64,000 bases of DNA from Chrysomallon squamiferum (lineage: Eukaryota > Animalia > Mollusca): positions 4,092,001 to 4,156,000 of the forward strand of contig CM022669.1 in assembly GCA_012295275.1 (NCBI GenBank), read 5' to 3'. The notes beneath the pieces are model-generated. The model was given only the letters and a program-made list of their open reading frames with translations, was not told where the DNA came from and did not search any database. This document shows, one piece after another, positions 43,201-46,200 of this stretch (positions are counted from its first letter, which is position 1; each line of letters opens with the position of its first letter). The position numbers and the translations under genes were made by a program.

Positions 43201-46200
43201 CCTGGTTATTTTTTGTTTTTTTTTGGCTTATTTATTTATTTATTTATTTATATATTTTTTTTCTTTTTCGTCAACTAACGATGCTAAATTATTCCTAATA
43301 CAAATTTCTAAGTTATAAAGAACATCCATGTTACACTAACAATTGCTTATTAAGCCTAACATTGTATAGTTATTTATTAAGAAGAAAATTAATGGATGAC
43401 TACTGATGTTTTTGCTTGTTTTAAACCAGACACTCATATATAAACATTCTCATTAACACACACATAGGCGCACATACACAACTTATATACATTTAAATAT
43501 TGCTCATTCAGTGTTTGCTTATAAAAGTAAATACGTCAAAAATATTTGGTGGTCATATGTTATAATTAAAAAAGAATTTTTTTTATTATTTCAGATTTGA
43601 AAAACATTGTTTTATACTATACTAAATCCATAATATACATCTTCCTGTATTAATTATTAAATATTTTATATCGTTTTATATCAAGCACTTCTTGTCAGCA
43701 TGTATCTCACAGCTGCCAAAAAATAGCACTGAGCAAAACTGCACACACACACACAACACATATACACACACGCACACACACACACACACACACACACACA
43801 CACACACACACACACACACACACAGAGATATATATTTCCACAATGATCAAAACCATACTAAACATTATTTTATTATTATTATTTGGACAAAAATCCAGGG
43901 CAATATATTTAACCATCAACACAGTCTCTTTATGAAGAAGTACTAAACAAAATACTTTGTATTTATACTTGTACAAATGATTCGAATCAACATATTTATC
44001 CAAATAATTTCAGTTTAACATATAACTGAGAGCATATAGTACTGAAAATGTATATTTAGACAATGAATGAAACCAGTATATTTATCTAACAGTATAATTC
44101 CAGTTTCAAAATTAAATAATTAAAGATAAAAATACCAAAATGAAACTAGTATATTCACAACTGTCGACATTGAATAAACGAGAACATTTATATTTTTATA
44201 GTTGCACAGTGATTCGAACCGACATATTTAGAATCAGTATAATTTGAGTATCACTGAAGTAAAACCGTATGGAGACAAACGTCATTATTTAGACATCGTT
44301 GTGGCTTGGAGGTTTCTGCTAGCGGCACAGCTAGTTTCGATGTTTGCAATGTTTTGTGTGTATCGTTGTAGGTATGACAATCCTTCTCTCCATGATGGTC
44401 TTCCTGCTGCAGGTGTCCGAACTGATGCCATCCACGTCAGACGCCACACCGCTTATTGGTATGCCACAAATTCACTGCTACGGCCACGTTTATGTCCTAG
44501 ACTAGTGCTTGTGTTAGAAAACTCAGTTGTAGCGTAGTTGTGTTGTGTTGACGTCAGTAGTTTCAGAAACAAAGTGGAAAGTTTTGGTATTCAGTTATTT
44601 CAGATTTCAGAACAGTTTTGACAGTTCATTGATGTTGATGATCATCATCACTATTGCCGTCGTTATACTAACTAAAGCAAAAGATCAAAGACAAGTATGA
44701 CATCTACGACAGTGGTTACTTCACGAACAACCAAATATCTACAGTAACTATACTAATAAGCATGACAACAACACCATAAATAATCATAACAACAGCAACA
44801 GCTGCAACGGAAGCAACAACAACATATCTTCAATAATAATAAGGAAACAGCTGTAGCAACAGCATGGATAATATAATAACAACAATAATACTAAAATAAC
44901 AAAAAACAAAATAAAAGAGGAAAAAACAACAACAGCAAATGCTTATGACGAAACCTTTAACTATAAAAATCACTTATGTTTCAAAGAATTCCCCATTTCT
45001 TTTCTGACACTACTGACTCGCATGAATGGTCATCATTTTTTTTGTCCACTGTTTCGTAGTTATGTAAGTAGATTAGTTTTGCATGGAGCATCTACAAAAT
45101 CCAGCTTCAGCCACACTGGTCAAAGACTGCATCACACGGGCGGTTGTTTTGCTAAGACTCGCTGGAGGGTTATAACATGGCTGGTTGTCTTTTCTAGGTG
45201 TGACAATTCTTCTATCACTGATGGTATTCCTGCTCCTTGTAGCAGAAACCATGCCTCCTACTTCGGATGCTCTGCCTCTGATTGGTAAGAACAAAAAAAC
45301 AGTAGTTGTTGTCCTTAGAGTATCAAGACGCTCTCCAGTGTACGAAACCGCCATGCGTGATAGGAAAACAGACGACTCAACTGACAGTGTTGAAGGGCAC
45401 AGAACGAACTTGGTCTTACCTGTAGAACTTTGCTTTTCTTTTTGTCTGTTTTTTGTTGTTGTTTTTGGTTTTTATTTTTACGTAACTGATGATGAATAAC
45501 TTACAAAGAAAACTGGATACAGTTAAACTATGGCACTGATCATTCGAATTAATTTTATTTTTCGTTTTGAGGGTTGGTGTTAGACGACTCTTGTTCTCAC
45601 CTCTTCAGTTCATGATGTCTCACATTTAGTATTTAGGAATACGAATATTTTCAGATTTGCTCAACAGAATTACATGATACATTTGTATTTTTTATTGATT
45701 CGTTTCTCCATGTTAATACACACTGAGAACAGTTGGTTACCGTCTTAAGTTATCAGCTTTATTTTGCGAAGTTTAGAAACCCTAATAGTTATTTATTTTA
45801 TCGTGGAGTCCTAAATTATACAAATTTAAATGAAATTAAAGGTTGGTTTTTTGTTTTCTTTTTGTTTTTTTCAAAAAGTATTCTTAAATAACAACAATTA
45901 ATTTTTTAATTTTTTAAAGGAAATCTATTTTCAAAATGCTCTCAAGTAACGATTTCGAAACCTTTGTTATTTTTTTTTTCTTAATTTCATATAAATGTCG
46001 TTAAAAACATGTTATAAAACATCCATTTCAAATTTTTTACAATTGTGCCACAACCGACTGCTTGTAGTTTTTTAAATTTATTATATATTTATTGTTTTAC
46101 TTACATCATAGCTAAAACTACATATTATATAATAAATTATATATAGTCTAATACGTGGACTTGTTTTCTGATATGATATATAAATATATATCTGTATTTT

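What the first reader, a model, noticed from the sequence alone, without database searches (positions are those of the whole stretch)
45105..45395. Three-helix stem that loops out pore exon 8b
Seen: CGCTGGAGGGT (45160-45170) pairs 11/11 with GCTCTCCAGTG (45330-45340, three G.U). ATCACACGGGCGGTT (45131-45145) pairs with AACCGCCATGCGTGAT (45346-45361; one A.C, one bulge). CTTCA..ACACTG.TC (45105-45121) pairs with GACAGTGTTGAAG (45383-45395). The three helices are nested in the right order and are GC-rich in an AT-rich intron. A branch-point-like CTAAG lies between the two inner helices. Inference: a structural switch that sequesters or presents exon 8b with both of its splice sites.
Basis: partly seen in the sequence, partly recalled or inferred. 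Interest (0 to 1): 0.75.

Follow-up and report, generated by a model that had tools for sequence, protein, structure and literature searches.

The report
Stem around a duplicated pore exon
A nicotinic acetylcholine receptor gene, likely from a snail, carries two side-by-side versions of the exon for its pore lining; the intron arms around the second copy are complementary and two of them are predicted to pair, but they are likely not a conserved splicing switch.

Summary
The window holds an alpha7-type nAChR gene with tandem 87-nt M2 exons 8a (44372-44458) and 8b (45198-45284). Both are kept: 12 of 12 listed differences in a second organism are synonymous. The Gigantopelta aegis protein carries both. 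The three complementarities are exactly as described. The two inner helices are predicted at P 0.82-0.96 in three windows; the outer one only in the tight window. Chance tests disagree: best two nested helices 4 of 1000 shuffles and 0 of 1076 pseudo-exons, but four folding-energy tests were not significant. Against a switch: one natural allele breaks the inner helix without compensation (predicted P 0.94 to 0.05), organism B lacks the inner arm in register, and no convincing competing partner was found. No RNA was available, so either-or splicing is inferred. A better branch-point candidate is TTATAAC (45170-45176), and four GCATG motifs lie between the exons. Verdict: real exon pair of a known kind; stem function about 35%. 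The scan noted similar duplicated nAChR pore exons in other genomes.

The parts
41042..41236 (+). exon 7 (loop C, M1, start of M2 to EKISLG)
   Evidence: tblastn of P0001, 89%; AG/GT ends
44372..44458 (+). exon 8a, 87 nt, derived M2 copy with Q at alpha7 L255 (17'); no branch-point-like motif at -15..-60
   Evidence: 27 of 28 to the first copy in P0001; 7 of 7 listed organism-B differences synonymous
44322..44333 (+). 5' arm of a G.U-rich 12-bp helix that could enclose 8a (partner 44535-44546); not formed in local folds
   Evidence: 24 of 500 and 47 of 1000 shuffles; 0 enclosing pairs in the MFE
44535..44546 (+). 3' arm of the weak 8a-enclosing helix (GT-rich)
44760..45085 (+). four GCATG motifs (44760, 44862, 45020, 45081; the last is TGCATG), Rbfox-type, in the 739-nt 8a-8b intron
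   Evidence: 4 seen, 0.62 expected, Poisson P 0.004; 1 of 8 introns tested
45105..45122 (+). 5' arm of outer helix (window-dependent)
45131..45145 (+). 5' arm of middle helix
   Evidence: P 0.83-0.96 for its 5-bp and 7-bp parts; no variant listed in X5, X6, X7, X8
45160..45170 (+). 5' arm of inner helix
   Evidence: P 0.82-0.94; 3 of 9 letters match organism B in register (counted by eye)
45170..45176 (+). likely branch point TTATAAC (A at 45175, -23), mostly unpaired in prediction
   Evidence: the alignment to organism B begins at 45169
45198..45284 (+). exon 8b, 87 nt, the common molluscan M2 type
   Evidence: 26-28 of 28 to the M2 exon of 21 other named molluscan proteins; 5 of 5 listed organism-B differences synonymous
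45330..45340 (+). 3' arm of inner helix; allele 45333 C>A in X7 breaks a G-C pair
45346..45361 (+). 3' arm of middle helix
   Evidence: no variant listed in X5, X6, X7
45382..45395 (+). 3' arm of outer helix
46359..46468 (+). exon 9 (M3)

Best explanation
The gene carries two intact copies of its pore (M2) exon that are likely spliced one at a time, and the predicted stem around 8b is likely a lineage-specific pairing within a GC-rich patch that at most nudges the choice rather than switching it. Shown: both exons are intact and under purifying selection, and the arms are complementary. Inferred: 8b, the common molluscan type with a good branch-point motif, is the default. 8a has no branch-point-like motif and would be turned on by a protein regulator, most likely an Rbfox-type factor binding the four GCATG sites downstream of 8a and upstream of 8b (the positional rule, downstream activates and upstream represses, is recalled). 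Using 8a puts Gln at alpha7 Leu255 and would likely change Ca2+ permeability or desensitisation.
For: Exons kept: 12 of 12 listed organism-B differences are synonymous; both peptides are in P0001. The simple exclusion routes do not apply: both exons are 87 nt (in frame, so no decay on double inclusion), the intron between them is 739 nt, and both are GT-AG. Weak constraint on the stem: X7 45333 C>A is uncompensated and drops predicted inner-helix P from 0.94 to 0.05. The downstream flank has 7 variant sites in 111 nt against 0 in 98 nt upstream (Fisher P 0.015), an asymmetry that pairing does not predict. Organism B aligns over 45169-45291 only, and its upstream loose end matches 8 of 30 letters in register (by eye). 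Folding-energy tests are not significant. Four GCATG motifs against 0.62 expected.
Against: The best two nested helices beat 996 of 1000 shuffles and all 1076 pseudo-exon positions. The middle helix has no variant in the haplotypes laid and survives the X7 allele (P 0.96). Arms hold 1 variant in 83 nt against 11 in 311 nt outside (P 0.24; underpowered but in the direction of constraint). Organism B is too far diverged at neutral sites for short arms to align, and only 30 letters on each side were seen. The GCATG excess was looked for post hoc (Bonferroni about 0.03 over 8 introns; 15 of 633 sliding windows also reach 4). The G. aegis gene model joins 8a and 8b together, so either-or use itself is unproven.
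Confidence: 0.5

Rival explanations
1. The two inner helices are a functional loop-out element. When paired they hide 8b, block the region just upstream of its branch point, and bring 8a's donor toward exon 9, so 8a is used; when open, 8b is used. This is the first reader's idea without the outer helix, with the middle helix as the core.
For: P 0.82-0.96 in 3 of 3 windows; 4 of 1000 shuffles and 0 of 1076 pseudo-exons; each of the four arms finds its stated partner as best partner within 41237-46358 (partly circular); the inner helix ends at the first base of the likely branch-point motif; the geometry equals the downstream pair of Drosophila srp (PMC4691838, section 5). In organism B an 8-bp helix between the two loose ends can be read by eye, and in one shifted alignment it would be a compensated inner helix.
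Against: Uncompensated break in X7; arms not kept in register in organism B; the organism-B helix is matched by 433 of 5000 composition shuffles (a tuned count gave 84 of 3000); MFE tests not significant; single helices about this strong occur for each arm roughly once elsewhere in the 64 kb.
Confidence: 0.35
2. Bidirectional or competing pairing (srp- or ATE1-type): each exon has its own enclosing stem, or the arm upstream of 8b switches between a downstream partner and one in intron 7 (41962-41974), so only one exon is exposed.
For: An 8a-enclosing 12-bp helix is reached by 24 of 500 and 47 of 1000 shuffles while four cross pairings are null for best helix (183-454 of 500). The inner 5' arm's second-best partner lies upstream of 8a (-16.0 kcal/mol).
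Against: The 8a helix has 4 G.U pairs in GT-rich sequence and is not formed in the local MFE. The intron-7 partner is equalled or beaten in 2 of 20 segments. The 8a and 8b flanks show no duplication remnant (184 and 298 of 300 shuffles score as well).
Confidence: 0.1
3. The duplex serves as an ADAR substrate for editing exon 8b rather than for exon choice.
For: Insect alpha6 transcripts are edited (PMC1919356). Nothing in this window points to it.
Against: The strong helices are intron-intron, 11-14 bp, and do not include exon bases. No RNA data.
Confidence: 0.05

Closest known systems
Insect nAChR alpha6 exons 8a/8b/8c (PMC1919356; part 2 of 6 and passages read)
   Same: Tandem copies of the 87-nt M2 exon in an alpha7-type nAChR; substitution would change the pore lining.
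   Different: Molluscan gene; 8a is unlike the insect copies (at most 21 of 28 identities outside P0001), so likely an independent duplication. The passages read propose no RNA pairing for exon 8. Either-or use is shown there by RT-PCR and is untested here.
Drosophila srp exon 4.1/4.2 bidirectional pairing (PMC4691838; passages and section 5) and the downstream docking sites of 14-3-3zeta, Mhc, MRP1 (PMC6071210; part 1 of 5)
   Same: An element between the twin exons pairs with one downstream of the second exon and loops it out.
   Different: Those elements are highly conserved across species and were validated by compensatory mutations. Here conservation was not seen, one allele breaks the inner helix, and a second (upstream) pair is weak.
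Human SCN9A ISRE1/ISRE2 plus Rbfox2 (PMC12772994; abstract, sections 7-8)
   Same: Ion-channel gene with twin exons; a short intronic duplex plus (T)GCATG sites bias the ratio against the second exon.
   Different: Both SCN9A elements lie downstream of exon 5b (an RNA bridge, not a loop-out) and are conserved to sharks. Here the GCATG sites lie between the exons.
Human ATE1 R1/R3/R4 (PMC7797038; abstract only)
   Same: Two-exon cluster whose choice is attributed to intronic pairing.
   Different: Needs competing partners for one site; no convincing competitor was found here.

Membership tests
Tandem-duplicated mutually exclusive exons | Adjacent homologous exons of equal length and phase with intact splice sites | tested here: met
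   87 nt each, AG/GT, 60 of 87 nt and 21 of 28 aa identical
Tandem-duplicated mutually exclusive exons | Both copies under purifying selection | tested here: met
   12 of 12 listed differences in organism B synonymous; differences near the piece ends were not listed; 27 of 28 and 28 of 28 aa in G. aegis
Tandem-duplicated mutually exclusive exons | Transcripts contain one copy or the other | not testable with these tools
   No RNA run listed; P0001 is a model joining both copies
Docking site / selector (competing RNA structure) control | Intronic complementarity that loops out a variable exon | tested here: met
   Two helices, P 0.82-0.96; 4 of 1000 shuffles
Docking site / selector (competing RNA structure) control | Two or more selectors competing for one docking site, or a second exclusive stem | tested here: inconclusive
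   Cross pairings null; 8a stem weak and not in the MFE; intron-7 partner at chance level
Docking site / selector (competing RNA structure) control | Arms conserved across species or covarying | tested here: inconclusive
   No aligned piece over any arm in organism B; inner 5' arm 3 of 9 in register; only 30 letters per side visible; uncompensated break in 1 of 3 haplotypes
Docking site / selector (competing RNA structure) control | Disruptive and compensatory mutations change and restore splicing | not testable with these tools
   Needs a minigene
Rfam structured RNA family | Covariance-model match | tested here: not met
   0 matches at E <= 1 over 44000-46500

The most novel reading that the evidence does not exclude
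A snail lineage independently evolved a pore-exon switch in its alpha7-type receptor (Leu to Gln at the position that sets Ca2+ permeability), governed by an RNA stem whose sequence has turned over between species while the pairing is kept, and which is polymorphic today: the 45333 C>A allele would be a natural splicing variant that shifts the channel's pore type.
Probability: 0.2. Interest if true: 0.55.

Novelty: new member of a known kind. Interest (0 to 1): 0.27.

Why it matters
The exon pair itself is solid. It would give a mollusc two pore linings from one gene, differing at alpha7 Leu255, a residue reported to govern Ca2+ permeability and desensitisation (PMC4959957, passages), and it repeats the insect alpha6 exon-8 solution. 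If the stem proved functional it would be a compact lophotrochozoan example of structure-guided exon choice, with a natural allele as a built-in test; searches listed no paper on this exon pair or stem, but the library lacks most subscription journals. Both the exon arrangement and the mechanism are known kinds, and the stem's function is not shown, hence a modest score.

Tried and rejected
No whole genome is held for the window. No RNA holder listed, which is no evidence either way. X8 and X9 were laid in case they were RNA; their contigs run through introns and show no joints. The metagenome scan gave 21 loci; 10 had an M2 exon hit, each a single copy, none with an 8a/8b pair. Protein searches with the 8a frame found only P0001 among 2 candidates of 98-2000 aa and none at 30-97 aa. 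My first guess, a cephalopod gene with a pan-molluscan duplication, was dropped: the Octopus bimaculoides hit is 58% identical to P0001 and has one 8b-type exon. No third exon-8 copy in the window. No Rfam match. No homology between the 8a and 8b flanks. No look-alike of this DNA among earlier findings. Steric, frame-decay and U2/U12 explanations of exclusivity were rejected from intron length, exon length and splice-site letters. The extra predicted helix over the 8b acceptor (45187-45198/45314-45329, P about 0.9) was set aside because variants at 45315 and 45320 fall in it. Control-exon ends were off by 1-5 nt (one search gives the corrected ends, except for exon 2); 8a and 8b were exact there. 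One search used exon ends shifted by one base; its translation and tblastn were discarded.

Full report
Gene. The + strand encodes an alpha7/ACR-16-like nicotinic receptor subunit. tblastn with its closest named relative, P0001 from the snail Gigantopelta aegis, places exons near 34575-34720, 37795-37839, 39650-39759, 40217-40473, 41042-41236, 44372-44458 (8a), 45198-45284 (8b), 46359-46468 and 47286-47723 (ends checked; exon 2 ends read by eye from that output). Identity to P0001 is 69-100% per exon, and P0001 is the best or near-best of the 120 listed homologues for each exon, so the window is likely a related gastropod (inference). No genome is held.

Exon pair. 8a and 8b are 87 nt each, AG/GT-bounded, 60 of 87 nt and 21 of 28 aa identical; there is no third copy. 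P0001 carries both peptides in tandem (27 of 28 and 28 of 28). The 21 other named molluscan proteins among the 120 listed (of 1777 hits) have one 8b-type exon (26-28 of 28), and no other protein exceeds 21 of 28 to 8a. So 8b is the common form and 8a the derived one, possibly lineage-restricted; 8a may simply be unannotated elsewhere. A second, coded organism B (runs X10, X11, one sample) has both exons at about 90% identity, and all 12 differences listed away from the piece ends are synonymous. 8a aligns to human alpha7 243-270, which puts Gln at Leu255. PMC4959957 (passages) reports that L255 substitutions lower Ca2+ permeability and that L255 affects desensitisation. Either-or splicing is inferred from the insect alpha6 parallel (PMC1919356). 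No RNA run was listed, and the P0001 model joins both copies.

The helices. All three complementarities are as written. The inner (45160-45170/45330-45340) and middle (45131-45145/45346-45361) helices have mean pair probabilities of 0.82-0.96 in three windows of 300-1350 nt. The outer helix forms only in 45100-45400 and loses to local hairpins elsewhere. Tests against chance disagree. Energy-based tests are null: z +0.55, -1.24 with 115 of 1000 shuffles, +0.56 and -1.55 with the exon fixed. Helix-based tests on fixed 120-nt flanks are positive: best helix 11 and 13 of 1000, best two nested helices 4 of 1000, reached by 0 of 1076 non-repetitive pseudo-exon positions and 0 of 102 GC-matched ones. 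I chose the two-helix statistic after seeing the structure; the full helix chain gave 59 of 1000. For each arm alone, a partner about as strong occurs roughly once elsewhere in the 64 kb. Six constitutive exons gave 49-286 of 300 on the two-helix test.

Constraint. Three further haplotypes labelled as the same organism (X5, X6, X7) show 12 intronic variant sites in 45059-45581 (a 42-nt repeat left out): 1 in 83 nt of arms and 11 in 311 nt outside (P 0.24). The one in an arm, 45333 C>A in X7 (contig depth 43), breaks a central G-C pair with no partner change. With X7's variants the inner helix falls from P 0.94 to 0.05 while the middle stays at 0.96. The upstream flank 45100-45197 has 0 variants in 98 nt and the downstream flank 45285-45395 has 7 in 111 nt (P 0.015), which suggests one-sided sequence elements more than two-sided pairing. 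Organism B aligns only over 45169-45291, with no piece over any arm. Its 30 upstream letters match 8 of 30 in register (by eye) and hold no CTAAG. By eye an 8-bp helix with three G.U pairs joins its two loose ends, and a shifted alignment would make it a compensated inner helix followed by the same GAAA spacer. Composition shuffles reach that stability in 433 of 5000 trials, so this is a lead only. The middle-helix arm lay outside the visible letters, which leaves the key covariation test open.

Branch point and protein sites. TTATAAC (A at -23) and TGCTAAG (A at -43) both score 5 of 7 against TACTAAC. The first is at the usual distance (recalled), is mostly unpaired in prediction, and marks the start of the block kept in organism B. 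Exon 8a has no such motif at -15 to -60, the only one of 8 acceptors without. The 739-nt intron between the exons has four GCATG motifs against 0.62 expected (P 0.004; one of 8 introns; 15 of 633 sliding windows reach four). In SCN9A, (T)GCATG/Rbfox2 sites and a short duplex together bias twin exons (PMC12772994, sections 7-8). That Rbfox activates from downstream and represses from upstream is recalled.

A switch needs a second state. An 8a-enclosing 12-bp helix (44322-44333/44535-44546) is borderline (24 of 500; 47 of 1000), G.U-rich and absent from the local MFE. Cross pairings are null. The best upstream alternative for the inner arm (41962-41974) is equalled or beaten in 2 of 20 segments. 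The flanks of the two exons share no detectable duplication remnant, the origin proposed for competing selectors in PMC6071210 (part 1 of 5).

Mechanism. Most likely (0.5): a real either-or exon pair with 8b as default and 8a activated by a protein factor; the stem is an incidental or weak modifier. Next (0.35): the two inner helices loop out 8b and favour 8a, as the downstream pair does in srp (PMC4691838); looped-out exons are reported to have lower inclusion (10.1101/2020.05.05.076927, passages). Bidirectional competition 0.1; editing substrate 0.05.

Novelty. Duplicated M2 exons are known from insect alpha6, and earlier unchecked notes of this scan describe similar pairs in octopus and arthropod receptor genes. 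Searches (listings only) showed no paper on this molluscan pair or on a stem around a nAChR exon 8. Supplements were not read, and those of PMC4691838 and PMC6071210 might list nAChR clusters. New member of a known kind; interest 0.27.

Noticed in passing
window 44760-45085: Four GCATG (Rbfox-type) motifs in the intron between 8a and 8b, 0.62 expected.
   Followed up: partly
window 41433-41499 and 43758-43824: (GT)n and (CA)n microsatellites in intron 7 could form a duplex of about 47-67 bp that shortens the intron before 8a by about 2.3 kb; such repeats are common in this window.
   Followed up: no
window 44908-44934 with 45454-45478: AAC-rich and GTT-rich low-complexity tracts are predicted to pair (P about 0.9) around 8b in the long fold.
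   Followed up: no
window 44264-44275 with 44387-44399: Upstream intron is predicted to pair with the start of exon 8a (P 0.84-0.94 in two windows), enclosing the 8a acceptor.
   Followed up: no
window 40217-40473: One 257-nt exon spans what are two exons (5 and 6) in vertebrate alpha7 (that layout is recalled).
   Followed up: no
L009 2309-3276 and 5983-9310; L010 1813-2301; L011 1876-2620; L012 2599-3370: Other nAChR genes from metagenome contigs carry two tandem copies of the Cys-loop exon, and L009 has four copies of the M3 exon.
   Followed up: no
window 41780-42230: GC-richer island inside intron 7 with no assigned feature.
   Followed up: no
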